Shown here: positions 390 to 29,567 of the stretch, piece after piece
Position numbering within the stretch: position 1 is the stretch's first letter
How the letters are laid out: each line of letters begins with the position of its first letter
Assembly: GCA_016218885.1 (NCBI GenBank)
Contig: JACRCT010000657.1
Coordinates: 1 to 36,253 of the forward strand
Reading direction: 5' to 3'
DNA length: 36,253 nucleotides
From: Deltaproteobacteria bacterium
Lineage (GTDB): Bacteria > Myxococcota > Myxococcia > Myxococcales > UBA5297
Made by a program: the position numbers and the translations under genes
Notes under the pieces: generated by a model
What the model was told of the DNA's origin: nothing
What the model saw: the letters and a program-made list of their open reading frames with translations, nothing else
The model's database searches: none

Positions 390-1922
390 TCACCTTCCCG
401 GCGGCGGCTGAGCCGGTGCCGCGGCGCGCTCGACCTCGTCCAGGCGTGGCAGGAACACCTTGAAGGTCGTCCCGACCTCCGGCTCGGAGTGGGCCTGCAC
501 CGTGCCGCCCGCCTGCTGGACGATGGCGTACACCGTGGCCAGCCCAAGCCCTGTCCCCTTGCCCGGCTCCCGGGTGGTGAAGAAGGGCTCGAAGAGCCGC
601 TCCTGGACTTCGCGAGTCATGCCGCGGCCGTTGTCGCTGACCGCCAGCGTCACGTAGCGGCCCGGGGAGAGGCCGGCCTGACGCGTGCTCGCTTGGTCGT
701 CGAGGTCGACGTTGGCGGTCTCGATGACCAGCTTGGCGCCGGCCCGGCCGGCCATCGCGTCGCGGGCGTTGAGGACGAGGTTGAGCAGCACCTGACCCAT
801 CTGCTCGCCGTCGGCGCGGGCGCGGCCCAGCGCGGGGTCGCTGACTGCCACCAGGTCGAGGTCGTTGCCCAGGGCATGGCGCAGCACCTTCTCGGAGTCG
901 CGGACCAGCGTGTTCAGGTCGAGCGGCTCGAGGGGGGCGGGGCGCTTGTGGCTGAAGGTCAGCAACTGCCGGGTGAGGCGGGTGGCGCGTTGGGCGACGT
1001 CGAGGATGTCCCGGGCGCGTTCGCGGGTCTTCTCCTGCTCGGCAGAGCCGGCGGCGATGAGCTGGGCGTTGCCGACCACGAGGGCCAGCAAGTCGTCGAA
1101 ATCGTGAGCCACCCTGTCGGCGACGCGCCCCAGCGCGTCCATCTTCTGGGCGTGCCGCAGGTGCTCCTCGAGGGCGGCGCGCTCGCGCTCGGCCCGCTCG
1201 CGCTCGGTGACGTCGCGCACCGCCACGATGCGCATGGCTCGGCGCTGGAAGAGGAACTGGCCGAAGGAGACCTCGGCCGCGAAGGACGAGCCGTCCTTGC
1301 GCACGTGCCGCTGCGCCGCAAGACCCGCGTTCCCCTCGCGCGGAATCCCCACCCCGAGCCGATCGACCGTCATGGCCGCCAACTCGTTCTGGCTGTAGCC
1401 GTAGAGGCGCTGGGCTGCAGAGTTGGCGTCCTGGATTCGACCGAGATCGGCGTCGCAGACCAGGATGGCGTCGCAGGAGGCCTGAAAGACGCCGCGGTGG
1501 CGCTCCTCGCTCTCGGCGAAGCGGTCGAGCAGGCGGCGCTGGTCGCGCTTGAGGCGAACCTTCTCGGCGGCGTTCTGGACCTTCAGGTTGAGGTCGTCGA
1601 AGTCCTCGATGGGCTTCTGGATGTAGTCGAAGGCCCCCACCTTCACGGCCTCGATCGCCGAGTCGAGCGAGGCGTAGCCGGTAAGGAGGATGACCTCCAC
1701 GTCGGGGTGCAGGTGCTTGAGCTCCCGGGCGACGTCCAGCCCCGTCCGGTCGGGGAGGTTCTTGTCGACCAGGGCCACCTCGAGCGAAGGGCACCGCCCG
1801 GCCAGGGAGAGCGCCTGGCCGGCGGTCTCCGCCACGAGGAACTCACGATCGGTCCGCGCCAGGATGCTCTGCAGCACGGTGAGGATCACCGGCTCGTCAT
1901 CGACGATGAGGATCTTGTTCAT
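390..1922 (-). CDS. Hybrid sensor kinase, REC-PAS-HisKA-HATPase
   Basis: N-terminal receiver (KILIVDDE, VALVDKNLP, LLTGY, YIQKP), PAS (HVRKDGSSF), H-box VAHDFDDLL, N-box NLVLNARDAM, DNGRGM, FFTTREPGKGTGLGLA. Start placed at ATG 1922 (MNKIL) rather than 1991. Confidence 0.9.
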   Translation of the reverse strand: MNKILIVDDEPVILTVLQSILARTDREFLVAETAGQALSLAGRCPSLEVALVDKNLPDRTGLDVARELKHLHPDVEVILLTGYASLDSAIEAVKVGAFDYIQKPIEDFDDLNLKVQNAAEKVRLKRDQRRLLDRFAESEERHRGVFQASCDAILVCDADLGRIQDANSAAQRLYGYSQNELAAMTVDRLGVGIPREGNAGLAAQRHVRKDGSSFAAEVSFGQFLFQRRAMRIVAVRDVTERERAERERAALEEHLRHAQKMDALGRVADRVAHDFDDLLALVVGNAQLIAAGSAEQEKTRERARDILDVAQRATRLTRQLLTFSHKRPAPLEPLDLNTLVRDSEKVLRHALGNDLDLVAVSDPALGRARADGEQMGQVLLNLVLNARDAMAGRAGAKLVIETANVDLDDQASTRQAGLSPGRYVTLAVSDNGRGMTREVQERLFEPFFTTREPGKGTGLGLATVYAIVQQAGGTVQAHSEPEVGTTFKVFLPRLDEVERAAAPAQPPPGR

Positions 1923-2012
1923 GAGGGTCTCTGGCTTGGCAGACGCGCCTCTGAAAAGCAACGCCGGGAGGCCAAGGCCGCCCGGCGTCAAAGGCTCCTT
2001 CGGATCTCTCGC

Positions 2013-2714
2013 CTACATCTCGGCGAGCATCATGTCCAAGCCGTTCTGGAAGGCGCCCACCCAGACGTTGAGGCTCTCCTCGTCGACCTTGGCGAAGCCC
2101 ATCGCGCCCAGGGTCTTATTGCCCTGGAGGTCCTTGCGGCCCTTGAAGAGGCGGCGGCCCTGGCTGTCATAGACCGAGACGACGGTCTTGGCGTAGGCCT
2201 TGGTGGTGGGGATGATGCCGCCGGTCTGGGTGGTCCACTCCGAGTACACGACGGTGATGAGGTCCACGCCCAAGGCCTGGCAGAGGTCGGTCGCCATCTT
2301 GGGATCGAGGTTGGTCTTGACCATGTCGCTGCGGTCGGCGGCGAAGATGGGCATCTGTGCGCCGGCCGGCTTGGGGGCGAAGACGTTGCCTTCCGCTTTG
2401 GACTTGGCGAGCTTCTGGTAGGGCTCGGCGGCCACGATGGAGGCGGCAGGGACGATGGTCCACTTGGCGCCGAAGGCCGTTTCGGTGAGGCCGAGCATCT
2501 CGTCCATCTTCTTGGTGATGAGCGAGCCGACGTCCTCGCTGTTGCCGTGCTGGAGCGTCTTGCCGAAGTCGCTGACGGTGAGTGAGACCACCGCCATCTT
2601 GGCCTTCTTCTCCTTGGTGGCGTCGAGCTCGGCCTTCATGTTGGCTCCGCCCCCGCAGGCGGCGAGCAACGAGAGCGCGGCGATCACGGCGGTGAAGCTG
2701 AAGAAGCGATGCAT
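2013..2714 (-). CDS. Lipoprotein of unknown function (possibly CsgG/LpoB-like alpha/beta fold)
   Basis: Strong SD (AAGGAGG) before ATG 2714; signal peptide ending in lipobox LAAC; 'LCQALGVDLI' segment resembles CsgG/LpoB-type domains (fold is inference). Confidence 0.75.
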   Translation of the reverse strand: MHRFFSFTAVIAALSLLAACGGGANMKAELDATKEKKAKMAVVSLTVSDFGKTLQHGNSEDVGSLITKKMDEMLGLTETAFGAKWTIVPAASIVAAEPYQKLAKSKAEGNVFAPKPAGAQMPIFAADRSDMVKTNLDPKMATDLCQALGVDLITVVYSEWTTQTGGIIPTTKAYAKTVVSVYDSQGRRLFKGRKDLQGNKTLGAMGFAKVDEESLNVWVGAFQNGLDMMLAEM

Positions 2715-2841
2715 TATTTCCTCCTTGAGACCGGTGAGCACGGCAAGGCACGGACACCAAAATCGACGCTGGAAACTACCACAGCCCCTGGAGTCGAGTG
2801 CCAGCCCCCCCGCTCTTCTCACCCTTTCGCTTGCCGGGGAA

Positions 2842-2859
2842 CTCCCGACGAAGGGACTA
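2842..2859. repeat. Dispersed intergenic element, copy 1 (core only)
   Basis: CTCCCGACGAAGGGACT, overlapping the TAG stop of the response regulator. Confidence 0.7.
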
Positions 2860-3240
2860 TGGGCACCAGCGGCGCACGGCCTGGAGAAGCACGTCGAGGT
2901 CGATGGGCTTCTTGAGATAGCCGTCGGCGCGCACCGAACCCGGGTCGGCTCCGCGCACGTCTCCGGAGAGCACGACCACGGGGATGGAGGCGAGCGCCGC
3001 GTCGCGCAGCTGCTCGGCCCGAAATTGCCAGCCGTTCATCAGGGGCATCATCAGGTCGAGCAGGATGAGCCCTGGACGCTCGCCCCCGCGCAGCGCTTCC
3101 AGCGCCTCGGTCCCGTTGGCGAAGGCGAGGACGCGCCACCCTTCGAGCTCGAGCAGCTGGCTGACCATGGCCCGGATGTCCGGGTCGTCCTCTACGAGCA
3201 TCACCGCCGCCGGCGCGGCTCCCTCCTGGTGCTCGCTCAT
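2857..3240 (-). CDS. Single-domain response regulator
   Basis: VMLVEDD, LILLDLMMP, VVVLSG, YLKKP. Its ATG (3240) overlaps the TGA of the upstream kinase (ATGA coupling). Confidence 0.92.
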   Translation of the reverse strand: MSEHQEGAAPAAVMLVEDDPDIRAMVSQLLELEGWRVLAFANGTEALEALRGGERPGLILLDLMMPLMNGWQFRAEQLRDAALASIPVVVLSGDVRGADPGSVRADGYLKKPIDLDVLLQAVRRWCP

Positions 3241-5441
3241 GCGACTCCCCGCTCGCTGTCTGCCTTGGCGTGCGGGCCGTTGCACGGGAGCTCGACGAGG
3301 AAGGTCGAGCCGGAGCCGGGCTGGCTCTGCACCTGTATCGAGCCGCCCAGCGCGTCCAACACCCGCCGCACGATGTAGAGCCCCAACCCCAGGCCGCTGT
3401 AGTGGCGCGCTGACACCGCGCGCTCGAACCGCTCGAAGATGCGTCCCACCCTCTCCGGGGGAATGCCGATGCCCTGGTCACGCACCACCAGGCGGGCCAG
3501 GTCCGCCTCGGCGGTCACCTCGATCTCCACGGGCTTGCCTGCTCCGTACTTGAGCGCGTTGGAGAGCAGGTTCGCCACCACCTGCTCCAGCCGCGCCCTA
3601 TCCCACCGGCCCACCACGGGCACCTCGGCCTTCAGCGTGACCGCACAGCCGGAGCGCGCTGCCTCGGCGGCCGTCTGCGCCAGGATCTCCCGGGCGACCG
3701 TCGTGAGATCGACCTGCTCCAGCTGCAGGTCCAGGCGTCCCGCCTGGATGCGTGAGACATCGAGGAGCCGATCGATGAGCTGCGCCATTCGCCCGCTCTG
3801 GCGCGTCGCGGTCTCCAGCGAGCTGGCCAGAAACTCCGGCGGCACCTTGGCCAGGGACCCCGCCTTGGTGAGCCGCAAGAGCCCCTGCGCGGCCAGCTGC
3901 AGGCTGGTGATGGGGGTGCGTAGCTCGTGGCTGGCGATAGAGAGGAACTCGTCGCGTGCCCGGACCGCCTCCTGGGTGCGCAGGTAGAGCCGGGCGTTGT
4001 CCACCGCCAACGCGGCGCGGATGGCCAGATCCTCGGCCAGCGCCAGGTCCTTGTCGCCGTAGTGCCGGCCCGACGGCCCGTAAGCCAGGGTGATGGCCCC
4101 TAGCTGCTTGCCGCGCGCGGTGAGGGGGACGATGAGCAGCGAGTGCGCTCCCAGCTCCTCCAGCAGGGCGCGGTGGCCCTCGTCGCGGGCGATGGCTTGG
4201 AGGTGCTCCGGCGTGACCTCGGCGATCAGCTCGCTCTGCCCGGTGCGCAGCACCTTGGGCACCCCCGCCGGCCAGCTCAGGTTGGGAGGGAAGCGGATGC
4301 GCAGCTGGTGCGCCGCCTCCGCCCGTGCCGGGTCGACGTGCGCCACCGCGACCCGGTGCAGGGAGCGGTCCTCCTCCACCACGTCCACCACGCACCAGTC
4401 GGCGAAGCCGGGAAGGGCCAGGTGCGCCACCCGCTCCAGAGTCGCCGCCCAGTCGAGCGAGGCCGCCAGCAGCCGGCTGGCCTCGGCCAGGAACGCGGCT
4501 CTTCGCTGTGCATCCTCGGCGGCCTCGCGCGCCGCCTGCTCCTTCTCCAGCAGGCGCAGCCGCTCCCACTCGGCGCGACGGCGCTCGGTGGCGTCACGGA
4601 AGCCCCAGCTGCGCCCGAAGTAGACCCCTTCTCCGCTGCGCACCGGGGTGCAGGTCACGTCCAGGATGTGCCCATCATGCAGGCGGATCTCGCCCACGTT
4701 CGCCGCCTCGCCGCTGGCCGCGTAGCGCTCCAGGCGCGCACGGACCTCGGCCGGCTCCTGCGCGTGCTCGGTCATCGAGGAGAGGAGCCTCTCGGGCGGG
4801 GGTAGGGGGCCGTCGGGCAGATGGAAGAGCTCGCGGAAGCGCCGGTTGCAGGAGACCGAGGCGTCCACGGCCACGAAGAGGATCCCGTCGAAGGCCGCCT
4901 CGCGCTGACTCTCCAGGAGCGTCTTCTGCTCGTAGAGCCGGCGCTCGCTTTCGAGGGTGCGGGCGTAGAGCTGCCGGTGCAGGAGCGCCGTGCGGACGAT
5001 CTCCACCAGGCGCTCGACGACGCCGTGGAACTGCACCGGCAAGCGCGGCCCACCCTCGAAGAACAGCACCAGCCCGGAGGCGGCCTGCCCAGCGTCGGGA
5101 GCGGTGATGCGGAAGCTCCAGCGTACCAGCCCCTCCCTCGCCAGCTCGGGGTAGGGCAGCTCGGACGGGAAGGAATCGGCCGGGTCGAGCGGACCCAGGG
5201 GCATTCGCCTCGACGCCCGAGACAGGCCTGCCGCTCCGAACAGACGCGCCGCGCCTGAAGGCTCGGCTTCGCCTACGCACAGGGCCGCCACGCAGCCCAG
5301 CCGCACCGCCAGCCGATCGAGGAAGTCGTCCATCGATCGCCGGGGATCGAACAGGTCGAGCGCCGCCACCGTGAGCTCCTGCAGGACGCTGGCCCGTGCC
5401 AGGCGCTCCTCGGTGAGCTTGAGCTCGGCGTCAGCGACCAC
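3237..5441 (-). CDS. Sensor histidine kinase with degenerate GAF, PAS and GAF domains
   Basis: GAF (FADWCVVDV...LIVPLTARG...AVDNARLY), H-box FLSIASHELRTPI, NLLSNALKY, DQGIGI, GLGLGL. Confidence 0.92.
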   Translation of the reverse strand: MVADAELKLTEERLARASVLQELTVAALDLFDPRRSMDDFLDRLAVRLGCVAALCVGEAEPSGAARLFGAAGLSRASRRMPLGPLDPADSFPSELPYPELAREGLVRWSFRITAPDAGQAASGLVLFFEGGPRLPVQFHGVVERLVEIVRTALLHRQLYARTLESERRLYEQKTLLESQREAAFDGILFVAVDASVSCNRRFRELFHLPDGPLPPPERLLSSMTEHAQEPAEVRARLERYAASGEAANVGEIRLHDGHILDVTCTPVRSGEGVYFGRSWGFRDATERRRAEWERLRLLEKEQAAREAAEDAQRRAAFLAEASRLLAASLDWAATLERVAHLALPGFADWCVVDVVEEDRSLHRVAVAHVDPARAEAAHQLRIRFPPNLSWPAGVPKVLRTGQSELIAEVTPEHLQAIARDEGHRALLEELGAHSLLIVPLTARGKQLGAITLAYGPSGRHYGDKDLALAEDLAIRAALAVDNARLYLRTQEAVRARDEFLSIASHELRTPITSLQLAAQGLLRLTKAGSLAKVPPEFLASSLETATRQSGRMAQLIDRLLDVSRIQAGRLDLQLEQVDLTTVAREILAQTAAEAARSGCAVTLKAEVPVVGRWDRARLEQVVANLLSNALKYGAGKPVEIEVTAEADLARLVVRDQGIGIPPERVGRIFERFERAVSARHYSGLGLGLYIVRRVLDALGGSIQVQSQPGSGSTFLVELPCNGPHAKADSERGVA

Positions 5442-5450
5442 GGCGCTCCT

Positions 5451-6626
5451 TCAGCCCGGCAGAGCCAAGACCGCAGTGGTCTTGTTGTGGAACTGCGGCA
5501 CCGCTGCCCCCAGCGCACCCACCTCGCCCATGGTGAGGCAGCCCATCCACGGCACGCCCTGGCCCAGGCCCTCGCTCACCGCATTAAGCTCGTCGCGCAG
5601 GCCCTGGTCGCCCAGCAGCAGAAAGCGCGAGACACAGTCGAAGACGAAGGCGCCACCCAGGGGCCCGCCGACCGCGGCGCGGGCGGCCTCGGCGGCGGCG
5701 CGCGCCGCCCCCACCAGGTCCGACCCGTTCGACTCCATCACCCTCACCAGCGAGCCGTCCGGCACCTCGGCCACGCAGCGCAAAGAGCCGTCCGCCTCCA
5801 CGCCGATGGGGTCGCGGATGAGGTGGTCTCCGTCGGCCTGGGGGATGCCCAGCGGGTGGCGCATGGCGAAAGCCGTGAACCCCTCGCGGGTGACCTCGTC
5901 GCCTCGCTCGGTGGCCGAGCGCCGGTAGACCTCGAAGGCCTGCTCGTACTCCAGCTCGAGCACGTGGGAGCCGCGGGCGCGCGTGACCATGGTCGGGGGG
6001 CCGTAAGGGCGCCAGCCGTGCCGCATGCCTGCCCCCGTGTGCCCCGGCAGGTCCAGCGCCGCGGCCACCGCGTGGTCAGAGAAGGCCTGGCCGCGGGCGA
6101 ACTGCGCCGCCTGGATGAAGCGCAGATTGTCGCCAGCGCCGCCTCCCGCCCAGGCCAGCGCGGTGCCGCCCTCGTGCACCGCGCCGCGCACCACCTCGGC
6201 GCCGTGGCCGCCCAAGGCATTCATGAAGAGCAAGGCCATCCGCCCGCGGGTGGCGCTGCGAGCGGGGAGCTGGTCGAGCGCCCGGGCCACCGCTGCCGCC
6301 CCTGCCGAGCGAGGATTGCCGCTGACGGGGCCGGCCGCGCCCACCCCCACGAAGGCCTGAGGAGAGGAGACGACGCCCACCACCAGCCCTGCGCGCAGGA
6401 ACGCGGCGTCGGCAAAGACCCCCGCTGCGCTGCAGCCGACCCAGGGAAGGTTGCCCAGCTGGCGTGAGCGGGCGCCGGCCAGGACCTCGCCGGGATACCC
6501 GTCGGTCGCCAGCACCACCGCGAGGGCGGGATGCAGCGCGTCTTTCATGGCCGCGCCGGTGGCCTCGGCAACTGCTGCGCCGAGGTCTTCCTGTGTGCTC
6601 TTGCCGATATGCAGCTTGGAGATCAT
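5451..6626 (-). CDS. FIST-domain signal transduction protein (FIST_N + FIST_C)
   Basis: GCSAAG, GGGAGD, HGWRPYG, VLELE..AFEVY, HPLGI, DCVSR, GCLTMGE, FHNKT motifs; start placed at MISKL (6626). It lies 9 bp upstream of the kinase on the same strand. Confidence 0.88.
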   Translation of the reverse strand: MISKLHIGKSTQEDLGAAVAEATGAAMKDALHPALAVVLATDGYPGEVLAGARSRQLGNLPWVGCSAAGVFADAAFLRAGLVVGVVSSPQAFVGVGAAGPVSGNPRSAGAAAVARALDQLPARSATRGRMALLFMNALGGHGAEVVRGAVHEGGTALAWAGGGAGDNLRFIQAAQFARGQAFSDHAVAAALDLPGHTGAGMRHGWRPYGPPTMVTRARGSHVLELEYEQAFEVYRRSATERGDEVTREGFTAFAMRHPLGIPQADGDHLIRDPIGVEADGSLRCVAEVPDGSLVRVMESNGSDLVGAARAAAEAARAAVGGPLGGAFVFDCVSRFLLLGDQGLRDELNAVSEGLGQGVPWMGCLTMGEVGALGAAVPQFHNKTTAVLALPG

Positions 6627-6820
6627 TCCGACGCGTCCGAGGTCGCGAGCGTAGCGCCTGAGCGGCGCCCGCCACAACCGTGCGAGCGCGAGCCGCCAGG
6701 CAGCCGTGCCCTGGCAAGGCGTTCACGTCGCTGAACCTTGGCGGCCGCGCGAGATCGACGTTGACCGCTTTCCTTGCTCTCGAGAAGCGGGATGGTCGGG
6801 TCGAGTATCGGCTTCAGGCC

Positions 6821-10512: not shown

Positions 10513-13032
10513 ATGGCTGCAGACAACAACAGGCACTTCGAGGCTGGTCACATCGTCGATGGCAGGTACGAGCTCCAACGGCTGCTGGGCGAGGGCGCGA
10601 TGGGCGCCGTCTACGAAGCCCGCAACGTCTGGACGCAGCGACGCGTGGCCGTGAAGGTGCTCCTGCCGGAGCTGGCCCGCATCGACGGCTTCGCCCAGCG
10701 CTTCATCCTCGAGGGCCGCAGCGCCACCATGGTGTCCCATCCCAGTGTCGTGGAGGTGCTCGACATGGGGCGCGACCCGGCCGACGGGTCGCTGTACCTG
10801 GTGCAGGAATTCCTCGTCGGCACCGGGCTCGACGTGGTTCTCGCCAAGAGGGGGCGGCTGCCGGTCCGCGATGCCCTGGACATCGCCGTGCCGGTCATGG
10901 CCGCGCTGGCGGCGGCCCACCGGCGCGGAATCGTGCACCGCGATGTCAAGCCGGCAAACATCCTCCTGGCCCAGACCGCCTCGGGGATCATCACCCCCAA
11001 GCTGATCGACTTCGGCGTCGCCAAGCTGCTCTCCGGCGACCGACCCACCCAGACCCAACCCGGGGTCCTGGTGGGCACGCCCTGCTACATGTCTCCGGAG
11101 CAGCTCCTCGCCGAGGACCAGATCGATCAGCGTGCCGACGTCTGGGCCATGGGGGTCGTCCTCTACGAGATGCTCGCCGGCCGGCGCCCGTTCGATGGCG
11201 CGCTGGTGCAGGAGGTGTGCGTCGCCATCGCCCGCGGCCAGTTCGCGGCGCTCGGCAGCCTGGCCAAGGAGGCCCCGGACGGGCTGGTGCGGGCGATCTA
11301 CCAGGCCCTGGCACGCCGCAAGGACGAGCGTCACGAGTCGATGGAGGCCTTCCTCGATGCGCTGCTGAGCGCGCCGGGGCTCGAGGAGACCTGCGGCTGG
11401 CTGGTCGAGCGCCATGGCGAGAAGCTGCCCTACCGTCGCCATCATCCGCGCTACGCCGTCCACTGGAGCTGTGACGTGAGCTGTGCGAGTTGGGGCAAGG
11501 TGCTCGAGCTCGTCTCCGCCAACGTCAGCCGCGGCGGGGTGTTCCTGCTCTCCGGCAACCCGCCCCAGCCAGGGGCGAAGGTCGAGGTGGGTCTGGTCCT
11601 GCCCGACGGCGCTCGCATGAGGCTGCGGGGAGCAGTGGTACGAGTGATAGGGCCCGAAGCAGCTTCCTCGGGCGCGAGCGCCGGGTTCGCGGTCCACTTC
11701 GACCAGGAGCATGCGACGGAGCTCTCGGTGCTCGAGCAGGTCGCCGCGGCGCACCAATCGCCGGGGTACGAGGCCTTGCCCGAGGCCGTGCTGGCTCCAC
11801 GCTCTCCAGCGGCCCCGGAGCCCAAGCCAGCGCCGCAATCCCCCCGAGCCCTGCGCGAGCAGCTGGCCGACGCCGTGGGCATCGACTTCGGCACCACCTA
11901 CAGCAGCGTGTCGATCGCCTTCAAGGACCGCGTCTATCCCATCTGCGACGCGCGGCAGCGTTCGCTGCACCCGTCCATCGTGAGCTTTCCCAGGCATGGC
12001 GGCCCCGTGGTGGGTTGGGACGCAAGGCAGAGGCACCTGAGCGAGCCGGAGCGGACGGTGAGGTCGATCAAGCGCCTCCTGGGACGCTCGATCGACGAGC
12101 CCACCCTGCAGGGCTACCTCGGCTCGTTGCCCTATCCCACGGTGCGCGGACCCGGCAACGCCGTGGTGCTGCAGATCGACGACACGCCGCTGGCGCCAGT
12201 ACAGGTGGCCGCGGAGATCATCGGCCTGTTGCGCAAGACCGCTGAGTCGCGCACCGGGAAGGAGATCCTGCGCGCGGTGCTCTCCGTGCCGCTCGACTTC
12301 ACCGAGGCGCAGCGCCAGGCGGTGCAGCGCGCCGCCTCGATGGCCGGGCTCGAGGTGCTCGAGCTGATTGGCGAGCCTATCGCCGCGCTGCTCGCCTACG
12401 GCCTGGGGCAGAACAAGCGCGAGGTCGTCGCGGTCTACGACTTCGGGGGCGGTACCTTCGATTTCTCGGTGGTCGACATGCAGGGCGACCACCACCGCGT
12501 GCTGGCCAACGGCGGGGACGCCTGGCTGGGGGGCGACGACTTCGACCTGGCCATCGCCACCGCAGCCGCCGACCGCTTCTGGCGCGAGACGCGCGTCGAT
12601 CTGCGCCAGCGGGCCGTGGAGTGGCAGCGGCTCCTGTACGCGAGCGAGCACGCCAAGCGGATGCTCACCGCCCAGGAGCAGACAGAGCTGGTGGTGGAGA
12701 AGGCTTTGGAGCATCCCGCTCCCCGCGACCTGCGTTGGAGCCTGAGCCGCGCCGACCTCGAAGCTCTGTGCAAGAGCGCCATCGAGGCTTCGATCGAGGT
12801 GTGTCGGGACGCATTGGCTGGCGCCGGGGTCGCCCTGCAGCGCGTCGATCGCGTGGTCATCACCGGGGGTACCTCGCGGGTTCCCGTCCTGCAGCGCGAG
12901 TTGGCCCGCTTCTTCGGCAAGCCGGTGACCTCGCTCGTCGATCCCGAGATGTCGGTTTGCATCGGTGCCGGGCTGCGTGCGGCCATGCTGACCAAGCATC
13001 AGGTCCGCCAGGCCGCCCACCGCGCGCCCTGA
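10513..13032 (+). CDS. Ser/Thr protein kinase - PilZ - Hsp70 nucleotide-binding-domain fusion
   Basis: Kinase motifs GEGAMG, VAVK, HRDVKPAN, DFGVAK, GTPCYMSPE (~10513-11370). PilZ motifs RRHHPR and NVSRGG (~11434-11750). Hsp70 motifs GIDFGTTYS, IKRLLG, EPIAALLAYG, DFGGGTFD, LGGDDFD, GGTSRVP (~11869-13000). Confidence 0.9.
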   Translation: MAADNNRHFEAGHIVDGRYELQRLLGEGAMGAVYEARNVWTQRRVAVKVLLPELARIDGFAQRFILEGRSATMVSHPSVVEVLDMGRDPADGSLYLVQEFLVGTGLDVVLAKRGRLPVRDALDIAVPVMAALAAAHRRGIVHRDVKPANILLAQTASGIITPKLIDFGVAKLLSGDRPTQTQPGVLVGTPCYMSPEQLLAEDQIDQRADVWAMGVVLYEMLAGRRPFDGALVQEVCVAIARGQFAALGSLAKEAPDGLVRAIYQALARRKDERHESMEAFLDALLSAPGLEETCGWLVERHGEKLPYRRHHPRYAVHWSCDVSCASWGKVLELVSANVSRGGVFLLSGNPPQPGAKVEVGLVLPDGARMRLRGAVVRVIGPEAASSGASAGFAVHFDQEHATELSVLEQVAAAHQSPGYEALPEAVLAPRSPAAPEPKPAPQSPRALREQLADAVGIDFGTTYSSVSIAFKDRVYPICDARQRSLHPSIVSFPRHGGPVVGWDARQRHLSEPERTVRSIKRLLGRSIDEPTLQGYLGSLPYPTVRGPGNAVVLQIDDTPLAPVQVAAEIIGLLRKTAESRTGKEILRAVLSVPLDFTEAQRQAVQRAASMAGLEVLELIGEPIAALLAYGLGQNKREVVAVYDFGGGTFDFSVVDMQGDHHRVLANGGDAWLGGDDFDLAIATAAADRFWRETRVDLRQRAVEWQRLLYASEHAKRMLTAQEQTELVVEKALEHPAPRDLRWSLSRADLEALCKSAIEASIEVCRDALAGAGVALQRVDRVVITGGTSRVPVLQRELARFFGKPVTSLVDPEMSVCIGAGLRAAMLTKHQVRQAAHRAP

Positions 13033-13204
13033 GGCTCGTGGCGGGGCAGAGGAGGGCCTGCCTGACCTTGGGAGAGAGCCTCTGGGCCGGCCGGAAAGCG
13101 CCCTCGGTTCGCGACTCTGGAGCTAATCGCCTGCGGTGAAGGTGCCGATGTCTCCGACTGAGCGCGTTCCGGGCTGGGATCCCGGCAGTGCCCAAGGAGC
13201 ATCC

Positions 13205-13567
13205 ATGGACGCCAAACAAGAGATCGATGCGGCGATCGATGCGCACGCCAAGTGGTTCGTCCGGCTGCGAGTGGCCATCGAGAAGAAGAGCAGCGAGTTC
13301 GCTCCCGGCAAGGTGTCGCTGGACAACGCCTGCGACTTCGGGAAGTGGCTCTATGGGAGCTTTCCGCCGCACCTGAAGGCCAGCCCGGCCTACCTGGAGA
13401 TTCGCAGCCTCCATGCGAGCTTCCACGTCGCCGCCGCGAAGGTCCTGGAGCTGGCGCTGGCGGGCAAGGCTCAAGAGGCGCTGAAGGCCCTCGAACCGGG
13501 AGGGCACCTCAAGCAGGTCTCCATCCAGCTGGTCTCGAAGCTCACCGCCTTGAAGGCCCAGGTCTGA
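13205..13567 (+). CDS. Stand-alone CZB (chemoreceptor zinc-binding) domain protein
   Basis: H-x-x-W (HAKW), C-x-F-G-x-W (CDFGKWLY), H-x-x-F-H (LHASFH) give the 3His/1Cys CZB zinc site; AAGGAG SD before ATG 13205. Confidence 0.88.
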   Translation: MDAKQEIDAAIDAHAKWFVRLRVAIEKKSSEFAPGKVSLDNACDFGKWLYGSFPPHLKASPAYLEIRSLHASFHVAAAKVLELALAGKAQEALKALEPGGHLKQVSIQLVSKLTALKAQV

Positions 13568-13606
13568 GTGCGGCCGTCTCGATGAGATCCCGAAGGTAGG
13601 CAGGCG

Positions 13607-13671: not shown

Positions 13672-15867
13672 CTACCGAGGGTCGGCGAGGATGCGGTCGA
13701 TCTCCGCCTGCGGGTCCTGGATCACGCCCTCGTGCACCAAGGTGAGGTCGCGATTGGACTTGGTGTCGTGCAGCGAGACGTTGTTCACCAGCACCTGGTC
13801 AGCGCCGGCGAGGCTGGCGAGGGTGGCGAGCTCGAGCTGGAGGTCGAGGCTCGCATTGGCCTTGGCGAACACGTGGGCGCGTGCCGCTGGCGTGGCTGCC
13901 TGCTGCAGTCGGGACACGAGTGAGCTGAGCTCCTCGCTGTCGCGCCATGCGGCCCGGTCTTGGGTCAGATTGCGGCCCGTGAGGAAGCGATAGCGGCCCT
14001 CGAGGTCCTGCGCCCGGAAGGAGATGCTGTCGCTCCGGAGCATCTTCATGATGTCGCCGTGGCGCGGGTGGTCGGTGGCCAGCCAGGGCGTATTCCTCCA
14101 CGCGCGCTGGTTGTCGCCGATGAGGTAGTGCATGTCCCAGGGGCGATCGAGCTTCTCGTAGGCGGCCCCGAAGGCCTTCTGCACCTGCTCCGGGCTTACC
14201 TGGCCGAGCGCCTGAAGCCCCTCGTCGGTGATGAAGAAGTCCACCGTGCGATCGGTCTTGCCGAAGCTGTCCAGGAACGTCCCGTTGTCGGCGAGGCCCT
14301 GCAGCGAGTCGCTCTCTGCGCCCAGGAAGCTGCTCAGCTCGATGAACTTGCGCACGTCGTTGCGGGAAGTGACCTTGTCGCCCCGCACGGTCTGGGTCAG
14401 GTGCAGGAAGCTCTCGACCGGCTCTCCCGGCTGCCGGGTCTGGATGAGCTCGGCGGACGTCGCGCGCTTGCCGGCCCAGATGTTGGAGAGGATGCCGGAG
14501 TAGTTCTCGTCGAGCCGGGCCCGGTCGAAGGTGAGCTCGCCCTGCGCCGAGCGGAGCGTGCCGTGAGCCTCGGAGTGGCTGGAAGCAGCTTGCAGCAGAG
14601 CAAGCTTGCCCAGCTTGAGGTTCGCCGAGGTGGAGGAGGTGCGCCCCACTTGGTCGAGGCGCGCGAAGGAGACGCCGCTGCTCGCGCCCTGCGCCCCCAG
14701 GGTGTCGGCCGTCCTCGTGTCCAAGCGCAACAGATCGGAGTAGGCCTTGGCGCCCTCCGCCTGGGACAGATCGATCGTGTAGCTCTGCACCACCTTCTCG
14801 CTCTTGGCGCGTGAGTGCGCCACCGAGAGATCGGCGCTCGTCCACTTGGAGATCTGCTTCTCGATTTTCTTGGCGACGGACTCTCCGCCCTGCTCGAAGA
14901 GGTCTCCGCCGAGCTCCGGCAGGTTGTCCCTAAGAGAGGCGGTGACTCCGACCCGGGCGCCCACCGAGCCGCTGCCCGTGGTGGACTCGAGCGTGGAGAG
15001 GGAGACGAAGACCTTGTCGCCCTCCAGCCGCTTCACCGTGAGCGATACGCTGCCCTCTCTGGACACGCCGACGTTCACGCCCGCCGAGGCCCCCACGCTG
15101 ATGAAGTTGCCGAGGTCGGCCAGCTGCGCGCCCACCCCCACGCCGGCGTTGGCCGCCACCGTCCCTCGCCCGACCAGCCGCACCTCGGTCCCCTCGGCCA
15201 GCGCCTTGGCGTTCTCGGGGTTGAAGGGCAGATCCACCGAGAGGTTCTTGGCGAGCTGGCCCGCTGCAGAGGTCTCGAGCGGATAGGGAGCCAGTACCGA
15301 GTATCCCAAGCTGGCCTTGGAGTTGAAGCCGGCGCTCACGCGGGCGGCGCCCGCCGGCAGCGAGAAGGTGAATCCGGCGCGGGGGTAGATGCCACCACCC
15401 ACCGTGGCCCAGGTCACCTTCTGCCACGCGGCCTCCATGCGCTGGGTCGTCGCCGCGCGATGCGGATCGTCAACGACAAGCGGGTCGTCGGGCCGCAGCG
15501 GTTTGACCTGCGTGCGCACGCAGATGCCGGCGTGGTCGCCCAGCTTGAAGTCGGCGATGGAGAGGTCGCGCGAGCGATAGATCTGGTCCTTGGCGAGGTC
15601 GACGAGCTTGTCCTTGACCTTGTCCAACAGCCCGTCGCTCTCATTGCTGCGCAGGGTGTCGGGCGCCATGCGGAAGAGGGCCAGGGCCTGGTTGCGCTCC
15701 GCGTCGCTGGCGAAGTACTCGCTCTTGAGCTCGTCGCGCAGGACCTGCTGCTGCTCGGCGGTCAGCGGCCCCTCGGCGATGAGCTGCTGCGCCTCGGCGG
15801 CAGTGAGCTTGTGGTCCTTCACCGAGGAAGCGACGCGGTGGCGGAAGGCTTCGAGCGAGACAGGCAT
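13672..15867 (-). CDS. Hypothetical 731-aa protein with a beta-rich central region
   Basis: Long ORF with normal high-GC3 codon pattern and GAGG SD; no family recognised. Confidence 0.85.
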   Translation of the reverse strand: MPVSLEAFRHRVASSVKDHKLTAAEAQQLIAEGPLTAEQQQVLRDELKSEYFASDAERNQALALFRMAPDTLRSNESDGLLDKVKDKLVDLAKDQIYRSRDLSIADFKLGDHAGICVRTQVKPLRPDDPLVVDDPHRAATTQRMEAAWQKVTWATVGGGIYPRAGFTFSLPAGAARVSAGFNSKASLGYSVLAPYPLETSAAGQLAKNLSVDLPFNPENAKALAEGTEVRLVGRGTVAANAGVGVGAQLADLGNFISVGASAGVNVGVSREGSVSLTVKRLEGDKVFVSLSTLESTTGSGSVGARVGVTASLRDNLPELGGDLFEQGGESVAKKIEKQISKWTSADLSVAHSRAKSEKVVQSYTIDLSQAEGAKAYSDLLRLDTRTADTLGAQGASSGVSFARLDQVGRTSSTSANLKLGKLALLQAASSHSEAHGTLRSAQGELTFDRARLDENYSGILSNIWAGKRATSAELIQTRQPGEPVESFLHLTQTVRGDKVTSRNDVRKFIELSSFLGAESDSLQGLADNGTFLDSFGKTDRTVDFFITDEGLQALGQVSPEQVQKAFGAAYEKLDRPWDMHYLIGDNQRAWRNTPWLATDHPRHGDIMKMLRSDSISFRAQDLEGRYRFLTGRNLTQDRAAWRDSEELSSLVSRLQQAATPAARAHVFAKANASLDLQLELATLASLAGADQVLVNNVSLHDTKSNRDLTLVHEGVIQDPQAEIDRILADPR

Positions 15868-16021
15868 GGGACCTCTTCGAGGAGCGGCTTTCGGGGGGGG
15901 AGGCCGGTCAATGACGACGCAGCATTATGCCTGGAGAGCAGACGGACGATCCACTCCTCGGCTTCCTGCTTCGAGAGGTGGGAGCCAGGCAACGTTGGAG
16001 CAAGGGGCCTGGGCGATCCCT

Positions 16022-16514: not shown

Positions 16515-16892
16515 TCAGCCTGCCCGGTGCTGGGCAAGCCGGCGAGCGACGATCTCCTCGATCAGCGCCATGGAGTCGGCGTCGAAGTTGACGAACTCGA
16601 CCCCCATCCCGGCGACGACCGCGGGATCGCCCGGGAGGTTGACGCGCACGACCCGCCCCAGGCCCTCGATGAGCCGCGACCCGTCCTTGAGGGCGAACTG
16701 CAGATAGACGAACGCGCCCTCCTCTCGAGGCTCGTTGGTCTTGATGAACATTCCGCCCACCGAGAGGTCGGTGGAGTACTCGGCGAGGAACTCCTCGAAG
16801 GTGTCGAAGCGGTACTGGATGAGCAGCTGCAGCGGAGCGCGGGGATGGCGTCGGCGCTCATCGCCGGAATCAGCAGCCTCCGCGTCGGACAT
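16515..16892 (-). CDS. PilZ-domain protein, TIGR02266-like (myxobacterial)
   Basis: RRRHPR, 'FEEFLAEYSTDLSVGGMFIKT', GRVVR, GMGVEF. Start may be 16892 or 16919. Confidence 0.9.
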   Translation of the reverse strand: MSDAEAADSGDERRRHPRAPLQLLIQYRFDTFEEFLAEYSTDLSVGGMFIKTNEPREEGAFVYLQFALKDGSRLIEGLGRVVRVNLPGDPAVVAGMGVEFVNFDADSMALIEEIVARRLAQHRAG

Positions 16893-16963
16893 CGGGGCTT
16901 CTTCGTCGGAGGGGCACATGGGGCTGCCATTCTAGACCAAGTCCGAATCGGCGCCAGTTGGGG

Positions 16964-21564: not shown

Positions 21565-21694
21565 TCTAGACCCCAGGCTTCAGGACGAGCGGCCCCAGGC
21601 CACCAACTTCGCAGAATCCAAGGCTTTTCCTGGGTCTGAAGCCTGGAGCCCGAAGTCCTTGCCATCTTGCGCACGATTTCCCGACGAAGGGACC
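21565..21694. repeat. Dispersed intergenic element, copy 2 (inverted heptamer arms + TCCCGACGAAGGGAC end)
   Basis: Left arm AGACCCCAGGCTTCAGG..GCCCCAGGCC, right arm CCTGGGTCTGAAGCCTGGAGCCCGAAGTCC; 15-bp core at 21679-21693. Confidence 0.75.
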
Positions 21695-25559: not shown

Positions 25560-25593
25560 GGTGATCCCCCTCGGGAGCCGACTCGTTCAGCCG

Positions 25594-29564: not shown

Positions 29565-29567
29565 GGA

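What the first reader, a model, noticed from the sequence alone, without database searches (positions are those of the whole stretch)
10513..13032. Ser/Thr kinase-PilZ-Hsp70 ATPase triple fusion with no substrate-binding domain
Seen: one uninterrupted 839-aa ORF. It has intact kinase motifs, a PilZ domain with both c-di-GMP motifs (RxxxR = RHHPR; [D/N]xSxxG = NVSRGG) and an Hsp70 NBD. The NBD keeps the equivalents of DnaK D8, K70, E171, D194 and T199, but the ORF stops right after it, with no DVLLLD linker and no SBD. No TM helix is evident. Established: myxobacteria have many DnaK paralogues and PilZ fusions, and DnaK T199 is a phosphorylation site. Inference: this is not a folding chaperone but a cytoplasmic switch joining c-di-GMP binding, ATPase cycling and Ser/Thr phosphorylation in one chain. 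I do not know of a characterised protein with this architecture.
Basis: partly seen in the sequence, partly recalled or inferred. Interest (0 to 1): 0.8.

Follow-up and report, generated by a model that had tools for sequence, protein, structure and literature searches.

The report
Kinase–PilZ–Hsp70 ATPase fusion, no substrate domain
This myxobacterial gene really does join a Ser/Thr protein kinase, a c-di-GMP-sensing PilZ domain and an Hsp70 ATPase domain that lacks any substrate-binding part, and it is a rare kinase-bearing offshoot of a much larger, unstudied family of PilZ–Hsp70-ATPase proteins that probably signal rather than fold proteins.

Summary
Window 10513-13032 (+) is one intact 839-aa ORF. 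It has a PknA/PknB-like Hanks kinase, a PilZ domain with both c-di-GMP motifs, and an Hsp70 nucleotide-binding domain (NBD) with all catalytic residues. The protein ends 7 residues after the NBD. An independent assembly of reads bridges both junctions and the stop codon.

Thirteen homologues (43-61% identity, several sources) share the architecture and the same end. On an NBD tree the 14 kinase fusions form one clade nested among PilZ-NBD-only proteins. That wider family (52 further members among the best 120 hits) also carries DnaJ-, DnaJ-PilZ- and MshEN-NBD forms. It has lost the DnaK Arg167/Asn170 J-domain contact.

The triple fusion is rare: four representatives among the best 150 hits in a library of 1.84 billion cluster representatives, and one further genome among 400 sampled from the phylum.

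The pairwise combinations are known: Pkn1 (kinase-PilZ), CsdK1/2 (PilZ-DnaK with SBD) and a catalogued kinase+HSP70. I found neither the triple fusion nor the SBD-less PilZ-NBD family in print.

"Not a chaperone" is well supported. The c-di-GMP/ATPase/kinase switch is inference. Verdict: real, a new variant of known kinds, moderately interesting.

The parts
10513..13032 (+). Whole gene: 839-aa kinase-PilZ-Hsp70 NBD protein, stop codon included
   Evidence: Read contigs bridge the junctions and the stop codon.
10546..11376 (+). Hanks-type Ser/Thr kinase domain (residues ~12-288). Catalytic residues: K48, E67, HRD 142-144, N149, DFG 166-168, SPE 194-196. Activation-loop Thr181.
   Evidence: Pfam Pkinase E 6.6e-46. 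Closest solved structure is M. tuberculosis PknA, E 5.8e-46, then PknB. The catalytic residues are invariant in 14 of 14 family members, and the Thr181 column holds T or S in 14 of 14.
11425..11772 (+). PilZ domain (residues ~305-420): beta-strands followed by a C-terminal helix at 398-415
   Evidence: Pfam PilZ 36.6 bits against cut-off 22.5. TIGR02266 scores 42.7 bits, below its cut-off of 68.7. Secondary structure from the AF2 model.
11437..11451 (+). RxxxR c-di-GMP motif, RHHPR (residues 309-313)
   Evidence: Conserved as R-x-H-x-R in 10 of 14 family members. Low pLDDT at 308-314 in the model.
11521..11538 (+). [D/N]xSxxG c-di-GMP motif, NVSRGG (residues 337-342)
   Evidence: Present together with RxxxR in 10 of 14 family members.
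11773..11865 (+). Pro/Ala-rich flexible linker (residues 421-451)
   Evidence: pLDDT below 50 at 428-444. Length and sequence are highly variable across the 14 homologues.
11866..13008 (+). Hsp70-type nucleotide-binding domain (residues 452-832) with D458, K520, E621, D643, GGGT 645-648 and D650
   Evidence: Pfam HSP70 profile 1-380 of 599. DnaK NBD alignment. Foldseek best hit is DnaK NBD 7rax, TM(target) 0.91, rmsd 2.2 A. Catalytic residues are invariant in A1.
13009..13032 (+). Seven-residue tail after the NBD plus the TGA stop. With the four residues before it, it forms a short conserved H-x-V-x-(G/Q)-x-A-R type tail where Hsp70s have the interdomain linker.
   Evidence: The AF2 model shows beta-bridge residues at 833-834 and 836; this is a hint only.

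Best explanation
What it is. The gene encodes a soluble cytoplasmic signalling protein, not a chaperone. The protein has three modules. (1) An active PknA/PknB-like Ser/Thr kinase. (2) A PilZ domain that keeps both c-di-GMP-binding motifs. (3) A catalytically competent Hsp70-type ATPase domain. This ATPase domain belongs to a special, mainly myxobacterial subfamily that has no substrate-binding domain and has lost the canonical J-domain contact.

What is shown. The architecture is real. It is conserved. It arose once, by adding a kinase to the N-terminus of a pre-existing PilZ-NBD-only module. All catalytic and ligand motifs are intact.

What is inferred. c-di-GMP bound by PilZ changes the ATP-binding and hydrolysis cycle or the conformation of the tethered NBD. 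The NBD then acts as a nucleotide-driven switch or interaction module that sets the kinase output. That output could be activation-loop autophosphorylation at Thr181 and phosphorylation of targets, possibly proteins held by the NBD or the NBD itself.
For: Architecture. The junctions and the stop codon are bridged by an independent read assembly.

Conservation. Thirteen homologues from NCBI, JGI, ENA and Logan assemblies, at 43-61% identity, have the same order of domains and end 0-9 residues after the NBD. The kinase and ATPase catalytic residues are invariant in 14 of 14.

Origin. On a tree of 92 NBDs the 14 kinase fusions are one clade (SH-aLRT 99). That clade is nested in a 28-row clade (98) with PilZ-NBD, DnaJ-NBD and x-NBD proteins. 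It lies inside a 76-row subfamily (99) apart from canonical DnaK. The fused PilZ scores 72-122 bits against most PilZ domains of PilZ-NBD-only proteins (range 18-122). It scores no more than 38 bits against any other PilZ-like domain that the family HMM picked up in the same genome (10 further ORFs). So PilZ and NBD were inherited as a unit.

Link to c-di-GMP. 62 of 66 NBD-only proteins carry a PilZ-like domain and 38 of 66 have both motifs. One relative instead carries an MshEN domain whose first 24-residue c-di-GMP motif fits the published consensus exactly. The genome holds at least 19 GGDEF and at least 46 PilZ matches.

Not a chaperone. There is no linker and no SBD. Arg at the DnaK-167 position is kept in 10 of 11 canonical or full-length rows and in 0 of 63 NBD-only rows. 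The DnaK equivalog model scores 304 bits against a cut-off of 648.

Kinase regulation. Thr181 aligns with the first Thr of the PknA activation-loop 'TQT'. Its role as a phosphosite in PknA/PknB is recalled, not tested.
Against: No binding, ATPase or phosphorylation data exist for any member of the family.

Motif presence does not prove c-di-GMP binding. M. xanthus PlpA has the motifs but was reported not to bind (Kuzmich 2021, passages read).

Four of the 14 family members (P0012-P0015) have lost both motifs yet keep kinase and NBD. c-di-GMP therefore cannot be essential to the core function.

The PilZ-NBD linker is unconserved and very variable in length. This argues against a rigid allosteric interface.

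The full-length AF2 model has pTM of only 0.58 and gives no fixed domain arrangement.

No conserved neighbours were found. The window and the G107 locus share no flanking gene family, though only 2 loci could be compared.

The gene was not found in 60 relatives, including 2 genomes of the same genus. It is therefore dispensable or recently acquired. The MAG is 86.7% complete with 5.9% contamination.
Confidence: 0.5

Rival explanations
1. Chaperone-network regulator. The SBD-less NBD does not signal by itself. Instead it binds components of the DnaK system, for example the NBD of a full-length Hsp70 (Hsp110-like), a GrpE-type exchange factor or a J-protein. The kinase phosphorylates that machinery or its clients under c-di-GMP control.
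For: The closest characterised relatives by architecture, CsdK1/CsdK2, are chaperones that act with DnaJ1 and a GrpE homologue on a PilZ client (Seidel 2023, passages read).

Sister proteins of the same NBD-only family carry an N-terminal J domain. A J domain normally recruits an Hsp70.

The genome has about 12 Hsp70 paralogues, including a canonical 636-aa DnaK-like gene.

The family-specific conserved residues (W671, W690, W704) lie where DnaK has H226, K245 and M259. That region is lobe IIB, the GrpE-contact lobe; this assignment is recalled.
Against: The Arg167/Asn170 J-contact positions are lost in all 63 NBD-only rows that could be scored, including the J-fused ones.

No DnaJ, GrpE or Hsp20 gene lies near the gene in either locus.

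Nothing here shows NBD-NBD or NBD-GrpE contact.
Confidence: 0.2
2. c-di-GMP-independent adaptor. The PilZ domain no longer senses c-di-GMP and serves only as a protein-protein or structural module between the kinase and the NBD. The kinase is regulated only by the ATPase domain or by upstream kinases.
For: Four of the 14 family members lack both motifs.

Pkn1's PilZ is predicted not to bind c-di-GMP, and PlpA with intact motifs was reported not to bind it (Kuzmich 2021).

In CsdK2 the c-di-GMP motif was dispensable for the tested interaction, and its role is stated to be unknown (Seidel 2023).
Against: Both motifs are intact here and in 10 of 14 members across 43-61% identity. They are also intact in 23 of 30 PilZ-NBD proteins, which indicates purifying selection on the ligand site.

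An MshEN domain, a different c-di-GMP receptor, replaces PilZ in one relative.
Confidence: 0.2
3. Anti-phage or conflict-system kinase. The protein is a single-gene defence kinase of the PD-T4-6 / Stk2 type, with the NBD acting as sensor of a phage protein.
For: The kinase domain (residues 12-287) matches many PADLOC PD-T4-6 models, best E 1.3e-79, and also mad6 and PglW models (NCBIfam).
Against: These matches cover only the generic Hanks kinase domain. The genome holds 121 ORFs with such a domain.

Four flanking ORFs scanned match no defence model.

The surroundings are ordinary signalling and housekeeping genes, with no mobile-element signs.
Confidence: 0.05
4. Artefact or pseudogene: a chimeric assembly of separate kinase, PilZ and DnaK genes, or a DnaK truncated by a recent nonsense or frameshift mutation.
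For: The source is a fragmented MAG (1290 contigs, 5.9% contamination). No single read contig spans the whole gene. Three short-sided joints were listed.
Against: Thirteen homologues from independent assemblies have the same order of domains and the same end.

A Logan contig bridges both junctions and another covers the stop codon without any difference.

GC3 is uniform in frame.

No SBD-like sequence lies downstream in any scanned ORF.
Confidence: 0.02

Closest known systems
CsdK1 / CsdK2 (Mxan_3778, Mxan_6605), the PilZ-DnaK chaperones of Myxococcus xanthus (Seidel et al. 2023, PMC10313047; passages read)
   Same: A PilZ domain sits N-terminal to an Hsp70 NBD in a myxobacterium. The CsdK2 PilZ has the full c-di-GMP motif. 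In both cases the role of c-di-GMP binding is unknown.
   Different: CsdK1/2 are described as having the conserved linker and an SBD and as acting as chaperones on the client CdbS; they have no kinase. Here there is no linker and no SBD, a kinase is added, and the NBD belongs to a subfamily without the Arg167/Asn170 J-contact. The window's own genome has separate CsdK-like PilZ+Hsp70(+SBD) ORFs (C885, C92). These fall outside the NBD-only clade.
Pkn1 (MXAN_1467), the Ser/Thr kinase-PilZ protein of M. xanthus (Kuzmich et al. 2021, PMC8316039; passages read)
   Same: A Hanks kinase followed by a PilZ domain in one cytoplasmic chain. The ESM Atlas shows kinase+PilZ clusters of 419 and 566 aa, commonest in Myxococcota.
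   Different: Pkn1 has no Hsp70 domain, and its PilZ is predicted not to bind c-di-GMP. Here both motifs are intact. The PilZ is related to the PilZ of PilZ-NBD proteins, not to the other PilZ domains of the same genome.
'Kinase + HSP70' proteins (gi 32474490 of Pirellula sp., Krupa & Srinivasan 2005, PMC1262709; passages read) and the Planctomycetota/Actinomycetota Pkinase+HSP70 clusters
   Same: A Hanks kinase and an Hsp70 domain in one polypeptide. The pairing recurs in several phyla.
   Different: The examples I could inspect keep an SBD, with the HSP70 profile matched to positions 494-572 (P0147, P0177, P0201), or have the opposite order Hsp70-TPR-kinase (P0052, P0054, P0062). They have no PilZ. 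Six of the seven opposite-order Hsp70-kinase rows lie outside the 78-row clade that holds this family; the seventh, P0091, is a long branch of uncertain place. None is functionally characterised in what I read.
HSPA13 / STCH, the eukaryotic 'ATPase core' Hsp70 (PMC9691929, search listing and abstract only; the rest recalled)
   Same: An Hsp70 family member that consists of the NBD without a substrate-binding domain.
   Different: It is a eukaryotic ER protein with no PilZ and no kinase, and there is no evidence of common descent with this subfamily. This is a resemblance in kind only.
E. coli DnaK nucleotide-binding domain (PDB 1dkg_D, 7rax)
   Same: The fold (TM 0.91, rmsd 2.2 A, 34-35% identity) and all catalytic residues.
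   Different: No linker and no SBD. VKRIINEPT becomes VLELIGEPI, so Arg167, Asn170 and Thr173 are lost. Family-specific Trp residues sit at the DnaK H226, K245 and M259 positions.

Membership tests
Hanks-type Ser/Thr protein kinase (Pfam PF00069) | Pfam score above the gathering threshold | tested here: met
   157.3 bits against 31.7.
Hanks-type Ser/Thr protein kinase (Pfam PF00069) | Catalytic motifs: Gly-rich loop, VAIK Lys, alpha-C Glu, HRD, catalytic Asn, DFG, APE | tested here: met
   GEGAMG at 26, K48, E67, HRD 142-144, N149, DFG 166-168, SPE 194-196. All catalytic residues are invariant in 14 of 14.
Hanks-type Ser/Thr protein kinase (Pfam PF00069) | Kinase activity or autophosphorylation | not testable with these tools
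   Needs a biochemical assay.
PilZ c-di-GMP receptor domain (Pfam PF07238) | Pfam score above the gathering threshold | tested here: met
   36.6 bits against 22.5, residues 308-408.
PilZ c-di-GMP receptor domain (Pfam PF07238) | Bipartite motif: RxxxR, then 20-30 residues, then [D/N]xSxxG | tested here: met
   RHHPR 309-313 and NVSRGG 337-342, 23 residues apart.
PilZ c-di-GMP receptor domain (Pfam PF07238) | Beta-barrel with a C-terminal helix | tested here: inconclusive
   The full-length AF2 model shows five strands plus helix 398-415 at pLDDT about 72-84. The isolated-domain model was poor, pLDDT 55.9, and no fold search of the domain alone was made.
PilZ c-di-GMP receptor domain (Pfam PF07238) | Binds c-di-GMP | not testable with these tools
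   Needs ITC, DRaCALA or BLI.
Hsp70 / DnaK molecular chaperone | NBD with catalytic residues (DnaK D8, K70, E171, D194, T199) | tested here: met
   D458, K520, E621, D643, T648. Fold TM 0.91 to the DnaK NBD.
Hsp70 / DnaK molecular chaperone | Hydrophobic interdomain linker and substrate-binding domain (SBD-beta plus lid) | tested here: not met
   The HSP70 profile is matched only at positions 1-380 of 599, and the protein ends 7 residues after the NBD. The same holds in all 14 members.
Hsp70 / DnaK molecular chaperone | J-domain contact residues on the NBD (DnaK R167, N170, T173; their role is recalled) | tested here: not met
   These positions are E, G and I here. Arg is present in 0 of 63 NBD-only rows against 10 of 11 canonical rows.
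Hsp70 / DnaK molecular chaperone | NCBIfam DnaK or HscA equivalog cut-off | tested here: not met
   NF001413 scores 304.3 against 648. TIGR01991 scores 309.2 against 708.55.
CsdK-type PilZ-DnaK chaperone (M. xanthus) | N-terminal PilZ followed by NBD, linker and SBD, as described by Seidel 2023 | tested here: not met
   PilZ+NBD is present, but the linker and SBD are absent.
PilZ-NBD-only family (unnamed; defined here) | A C-terminal Hsp70 NBD ending no more than 12 residues after the domain, with the subfamily signature (W671, W690, W704, loss of R167), preceded by a PilZ-like domain | tested here: met
   P0001 sits inside the 76-row clade (SH-aLRT 99).
PD-T4-6 / defence kinases (PADLOC) | Full-length match and a defence-island context | tested here: not met
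   Only the kinase domain 12-287 matches. Four flanking ORFs scanned have no PADLOC match.

The most novel reading that the evidence does not exclude
The SBD-less Hsp70 ATPase domain of this mainly myxobacterial subfamily is not a chaperone part at all. It is a c-di-GMP-controlled, ATP-driven signalling switch, a new kind of second-messenger output domain. In this protein it gates a Hanks kinase. One polypeptide would then integrate c-di-GMP level, ATP hydrolysis and Ser/Thr phosphorylation, possibly with the short conserved tail taking the place of the Hsp70 interdomain linker in the NBD cleft.
Probability: 0.3. Interest if true: 0.75.

Novelty: new variant of a known kind. Interest (0 to 1): 0.55.

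Why it matters
Hsp70 ATPase domains are understood almost entirely as engines for a substrate-binding clamp. Here a whole family, mostly myxobacterial, keeps a catalytically intact engine and has discarded the clamp and the J-domain contact. It attaches the engine to c-di-GMP receptor domains (PilZ, and once MshEN).

The kinase-bearing branch gives a direct experimental handle. Kinase autophosphorylation is an easy read-out for asking what c-di-GMP and the ATPase cycle do to each other.

If the coupling is real, it adds a new class of c-di-GMP effector and a non-chaperone use of the Hsp70 fold in bacteria. It would also help to explain the unexplained PilZ domains of the characterised CsdK chaperones. 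If there is no coupling, the protein is simply one more multi-domain myxobacterial kinase.

Tried and rejected
The result was no verdict, so it counts neither for nor against docking of the domains.

Sequencing runs. No RNA holder was listed. Run X2 held only a small share of the words and covered 14 of 30 bins, so I draw no conclusion on habitat or on a second strain.

Genome scan. The genome-contig scan with the full-length alignment A1 chose generic DnaK patterns. Only L062 looked different, and it proved to be a kinase ORF followed in the same frame, after one stop codon, by a canonical-type Hsp70. It is not this family.

Metagenome scan. The scan with the PilZ-region alignment A3 returned 80 loci. 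My HMMs found PilZ-only or tandem-PilZ ORFs there and no kinase or NBD. No further genomic contexts were gained.

Alignment A2 was built with wrong window coordinates for its first row and was discarded. A3 replaces it.

The isolated PilZ-domain AF2 model was too poor to use (pLDDT 55.9), so no fold search was made of it. A sequence search of the PilZ region against the PDB gave nothing below E 0.1.

Conserved operon. This idea is rejected for lack of support. The window neighbours are an alpha/beta hydrolase, an FGGY kinase, a CZB protein, unknown ORFs, a PilZ protein and Lnt. The G107 neighbours are tRNA synthetases, Mrp/ParA, DUF1552/DUF1592-type proteins, a CBM protein and an aldo/keto reductase. 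They share no family.

Split SBD nearby. This is rejected. None of the five neighbouring ORFs scanned at E<=1 hit HSP70, nor did any of the 16 window ORFs scanned at E<=0.001.

Cluster look-up gave no organism names beyond 'Proteobacteria bacterium'.

Literature. The searches found no paper on an SBD-less PilZ-NBD protein or on the triple fusion. The library lacks most subscription journals. I could not see figures or supplements, such as Fig. 1/S1 of Kuzmich 2021 and Fig. 4C/S5 of Seidel 2023. These may show the exact domain limits of the four M. xanthus PilZ-DnaK/DnaJ proteins.


Full report
1. THE OBSERVATION

Window 10513-13032 (+) is a single ATG-started ORF of 839 codons without an internal stop. 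The window has 69% G+C, so long ORFs occur in every frame. An 869-aa ORF lies on the opposite strand. Only the + frame has the coding signature: GC at codon positions 1/2/3 is 0.74/0.48/0.88. GC3 stays at 0.80-0.95 in all 20 windows of 60 codons.

Pfam gives three domains:
- Pkinase at 19-242 (E 6.6e-46), with PK_Tyr_Ser-Thr extending the match to 273.
- PilZ at 308-408 (36.6 bits, cut-off 22.5).
- HSP70 at 454-830, matched to profile positions 1-380 of 599, that is the nucleotide-binding domain (NBD) alone (E 2.4e-93).

No NCBIfam equivalog cut-off is reached. DnaK scores 304 against 648, HscA 309 against 709, and PknB-PASTA kinase 249 against 450.

The kinase is closest to M. tuberculosis PknA (E 5.8e-46) and PknB. 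It has GEGAMG, K48, HRD 142-144, DFG 166-168 and SPE 194-196. The PilZ motifs are RHHPR 309-313 and NVSRGG 337-342. No 19-residue window reaches a hydropathy of 1.5, so there is no membrane helix.

The protein ends 7 residues after the NBD.

A full-length AlphaFold2 model (14-row alignment) has mean pLDDT 83.5 and pTM 0.58. Its low-confidence stretches are the activation loop (176-184), the RxxxR segment (308-314) and the PilZ-NBD linker (428-444). Foldseek finds only Hsp70 NBDs; the best is 7rax with TM 0.91 and rmsd 2.2 A.

2. IS THE FUSION REAL?

One public run (X1, a groundwater metagenome) holds 0.90 of the sampled words. It is probably the sample of origin, so it is not independent of the window. 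Even so, in Logan's separate assembly of that run a 1140-nt contig with 2 differences covers 11161-12300. That stretch runs from the kinase C-lobe through PilZ and the linker into the NBD. A 911-nt contig without any difference covers 12730-13600, which includes the stop codon at 13030-13032.

No listed piece spans the whole gene. Three joints with sides of only 21-22 letters were reported. The tool warns that such joints usually come from other organisms or repeats. They sit in conserved kinase and Hsp70 motifs, where depth also spikes.

Comparison gives stronger evidence. Among the best 120 hits of a search of 5.8 billion proteins, nine (P0003-P0011) carry Pkinase, PilZ and HSP70. Four more (P0012-P0015) carry Pkinase and HSP70 with a degenerate PilZ between them. 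Identity is 43-61%, and the sources are NCBI, JGI, ENA and Logan assemblies.

In the alignment of the 14 sequences, all end 0-9 residues after the NBD. The invariant residues are:
- kinase: K48, E67, H142-R143-D144, N149, D166-F167-G168, T189, P195-E196;
- NBD: D458, K520, E621, D643, G645-G646-G647-T648, D650.

The artefact or pseudogene reading is therefore rejected.

3. WHAT FAMILY IS IT?

Pfam scans of 33 other hits and an HMM of the NBD show the following among the 120 listed hits:
- 66 proteins have the NBD as their last domain, with a tail of no more than 12 residues: 14 kinase fusions, 30 PilZ-NBD, 11 with an unassigned N-terminus, 8 DnaJ-PilZ-NBD, 2 DnaJ-NBD and 1 MshEN-NBD.
- 12 keep about 120 further residues (SBD-beta only).
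- 7 are full-length Hsp70-(TPR)-kinase proteins with the opposite domain order.
- One fragment (P0096) was left out.
- The rest are kinases without an Hsp70 part.

I built an IQ-TREE 'quick' tree of 92 NBDs: these 85 plus 7 Hsp70 paralogues of the window's own genome that scored at least 240 bits. Fragmentary or weaker paralogues were left out. The tree puts the 14 kinase fusions in one clade (SH-aLRT 99). That clade is nested in a 28-row clade (98) with PilZ-NBD, DnaJ-NBD and x-NBD proteins. That in turn lies inside a 44-row NBD-only clade (96) and a 76-row subfamily (99). The genome's canonical DnaK-like gene and six of the seven Hsp70-kinase fusions of opposite order lie outside the 78-row clade (98) that encloses this subfamily. 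The seventh, P0091, is a long branch of uncertain place.

Two caveats apply. The rows are the best hits to this protein, so the sample is biased. The root is a midpoint root.

The family's PilZ HMM scores most PilZ domains of PilZ-NBD-only proteins at 72-122 bits (range 18-122). It scores no more than 38 bits against any other PilZ-like domain it picked up in the window's own genome (10 further ORFs). So PilZ and NBD travelled together, and the kinase was added at the N-terminus, once.

An exhaustive phmmer search of 1.84 billion cluster representatives (50% identity clusters) lists these among its best 150 hits:
- only four representatives of the triple fusion (P0007, P0009, P0010, P0014);
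- two larger kinase-PilZ-NBD-kinase proteins (P0138, P0161);
- 34 further PilZ-NBD representatives, 33 of them with a tail of 11 residues or fewer;
- three bare NBDs of 397-460 aa.

The gene is rare in genomes:
- 0 of 60 relatives have a full-length match, including 2 genomes of the same genus at 95% completeness.
- In a sample of 400 genomes of the phylum, one (G107, another family, 50% identity over residues 9-837) has it, and two others have PilZ-NBD-only genes. This search used a stricter first look, so the counts are a floor.
- The window's own genome is a MAG of 8.69 Mb in 1290 contigs, 86.7% complete with 5.9% contamination. It has one copy.

The organism is a myxobacterium. Lnt on the same contig is 69-71% identical to 'Myxococcales bacterium' MAG proteins and 56-63% identical to Vulgatibacter proteins. 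ESM Atlas clusters of PilZ+HSP70 proteins (518, 757 and 810 aa) and of a 396-aa NBD are commonest in Myxococcota.

4. WHAT THE SEQUENCE SAYS ABOUT FUNCTION

(a) The ATPase is probably active, because every catalytic residue is kept.

(b) It cannot clamp substrates, because there is no linker and no SBD.

(c) It has left the canonical co-chaperone circuit. Where DnaK has VKRIINEPT, this protein has VLELIGEPI. Arg at the DnaK-167 position is present in 10 of 11 canonical or full-length rows in which my pattern found the motif. It is present in 0 of 63 NBD-only rows; 2 further rows were not matched and 1 was mis-anchored. That R167, N170 and T173 contact the J domain is recalled knowledge. Even the J-fused relatives lack the Arg.

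(d) The subfamily has its own conserved residues: W671, W690, W704, E703, F651 and Q564. These are shared with the SBD-beta-only class and absent from canonical Hsp70s. By the DnaK alignment the three tryptophans replace H226, K245 and M259. Their assignment to lobe IIB is recalled.

(e) c-di-GMP is tied to the family in three ways. First, 62 of 66 NBD-only proteins have a PilZ-like domain by the family HMM. Both binding motifs are present in 10 of 14 kinase fusions, 23 of 30 PilZ-NBD, 3 of 8 DnaJ-PilZ-NBD and 2 of 11 x-NBD proteins. Only 1 of the 12 SBD-beta-keeping relatives has a PilZ, and it lacks the motifs. Second, one relative (P0116) has an MshEN domain instead. Its residues 6-29 fit the published 24-residue c-di-GMP motif exactly, while its second motif is degenerate (Wang 2016, abstract and passages read). 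Third, the genome holds at least 19 GGDEF and at least 46 PilZ matches.

(f) The kinase looks regulated in the usual way. Thr181 aligns with the first Thr of the PknA activation-loop TQT, and the column holds T or S in 14 of 14.

(g) Where Hsp70s have the linker, the closest clade keeps a short tail of the type H-x-V-x-(G/Q)-x-A-R. The model places beta-bridges at residues 833-834 and 836. This hints that the tail may sit where the linker docks. I could not see contacts, so it stays a hint.

5. MOST LIKELY MECHANISM AND ITS WEAKNESSES

I read the protein as a c-di-GMP-responsive signalling ATPase-kinase. PilZ senses c-di-GMP. The tethered NBD is a nucleotide-driven switch or interaction module. 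The kinase is the output, or a second input acting on the PilZ-NBD unit. I put this at about 0.5. Only the anatomy and the evolutionary history are shown; all coupling is inferred.

Several points count against it:
- Four members have lost both c-di-GMP motifs but keep kinase and NBD.
- The PilZ-NBD linker is unconserved and very variable in length.
- pTM is only 0.58.
- No conserved neighbours were found in the two loci I could compare.
- Intact PilZ motifs do not guarantee binding, as with PlpA (Kuzmich 2021).

The rivals, all set out in the Rival explanations section, are:
- a regulator of the DnaK network (0.2);
- a c-di-GMP-blind adaptor PilZ (0.2, which overlaps with the others);
- a defence kinase (0.05), for which only the generic kinase domain matches PADLOC models and the genome has 121 kinase ORFs;
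- an artefact (0.02).

6. COMPARISON WITH WHAT IS KNOWN

PilZ-DnaK proteins are characterised. CsdK1 and CsdK2 of M. xanthus have PilZ, NBD, linker and SBD. They stabilise the stand-alone PilZ protein CdbS as a client of the DnaK part. The role of c-di-GMP binding by CsdK2 is stated to be unknown (Seidel 2023, passages read).

Pkn1 is a kinase-PilZ protein needed for development. Four of the 24 M. xanthus PilZ proteins carry DnaK or DnaJ domains (Kuzmich 2021, passages read).

'Kinase + HSP70' was listed for a Pirellula protein in a 2005 domain census, without experiments. The ESM Atlas shows Pkinase+HSP70 clusters of 792-883 aa in Planctomycetota and of 822 aa in Actinomycetota. The representatives I could inspect keep an SBD or have the reverse order.

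HSPA13/STCH is a eukaryotic SBD-less Hsp70 (listing; otherwise recalled).

The window's own genome also has CsdK-like (C885, C92) and Pkn1-like (C848, C651, C246) ORFs.

I found no paper on an SBD-less PilZ-NBD protein or on the triple fusion. The PilZ review preprint mentions Pkn1 but not DnaK or Hsp70. The DnaK-duplication paper mentions neither PilZ, kinase nor truncation. Figures and supplements were not visible to me.

7. VERDICT

Novelty: a new variant of known kinds. This is a rare kinase-bearing branch of a sizeable, apparently undescribed PilZ-NBD-only family. Interest 0.55. The wider family is what a specialist would want to follow up, together with the independent PilZ and MshEN fusions to an SBD-less, J-contact-less Hsp70 ATPase.

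Noticed in passing
window 13127-13567 (+): A stand-alone 146-aa protein with a chemoreceptor zinc-binding (CZB) domain (E 1.9e-10) lies 95 bp downstream of the fusion gene on the same strand and may be co-transcribed. From memory, CZB domains are known from zinc-regulated diguanylate cyclases. It is not present next to the G107 orthologue.
   Followed up: partly
window 16515-16931 (-) and 29598-29873 (-): There are two further PilZ genes in the window. The first is a 138-aa stand-alone PilZ (52.5 bits) with an intact RxxxR and a DxSxxG motif. It is 30% identical to the fused PilZ (E 6e-13). This recalls the CdbS/CsdK pairing in M. xanthus, but with at least 46 PilZ matches in the genome it may be chance.
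   Followed up: partly
window 31163-35065 (+): A 1300-aa protein fuses a CheB methylesterase, a CheR methyltransferase, PAS domains and a histidine kinase (HisKA + HATPase_c).
   Followed up: no
window 390-6722 (-): A run of three signalling genes: a FIST protein, a GAF/PAS histidine kinase, and a receiver-PAS-HATPase hybrid. A 340-aa ORF without a Pfam match lies between them.
   Followed up: no
window 13672-15924 (-) and 21570-25559 (+): Two long ORFs (750 and 1329 aa) have a good coding signature (GC3 0.89-0.91) but no Pfam match at E<=0.001.
   Followed up: no
window 25560-31160: This stretch has a weaker coding signature. The only clear call is an 853-aa ORF (26369-28930, -) with fibronectin type III domains. 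Five other ORFs tested had no Pfam match.
   Followed up: partly
L062 7188-8930 and 8934-11060 (+): In another MAG a Ser/Thr kinase ORF and a canonical-type Hsp70 ORF lie in the same reading frame, separated by a single stop codon. This could be adjacent genes, read-through or a broken fusion. The NBD is not of the family described here.
   Followed up: partly
proteins P0138 (1532 aa) and P0161 (1628 aa): A larger variant: kinase-PilZ-NBD(only)-kinase plus about 300 further residues, so the SBD-less NBD is sandwiched between two kinase domains.
   Followed up: partly
proteins P0012-P0015 and P0260: A sub-branch of the kinase fusions has lost both c-di-GMP motifs. In three of the four aligned members (P0012-P0014) it has gained an N-terminal extension with CxxC...C spacing that looks like a zinc ribbon.
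   Followed up: no
protein P0116 (733 aa): An MshEN-NBD-only protein. A second, unrelated c-di-GMP receptor domain is fused to the same SBD-less Hsp70 subfamily. Its first 24-residue motif is perfect and its second is degenerate.
   Followed up: partly
G000 contigs C885 (283-3318, +) and C92 (6877-9155, -): The same genome has PilZ + Hsp70 ORFs that keep an SBD-like tail (CsdK-like architecture) and the Arg167 position. On the NBD tree they fall outside the NBD-only clade.
   Followed up: partly
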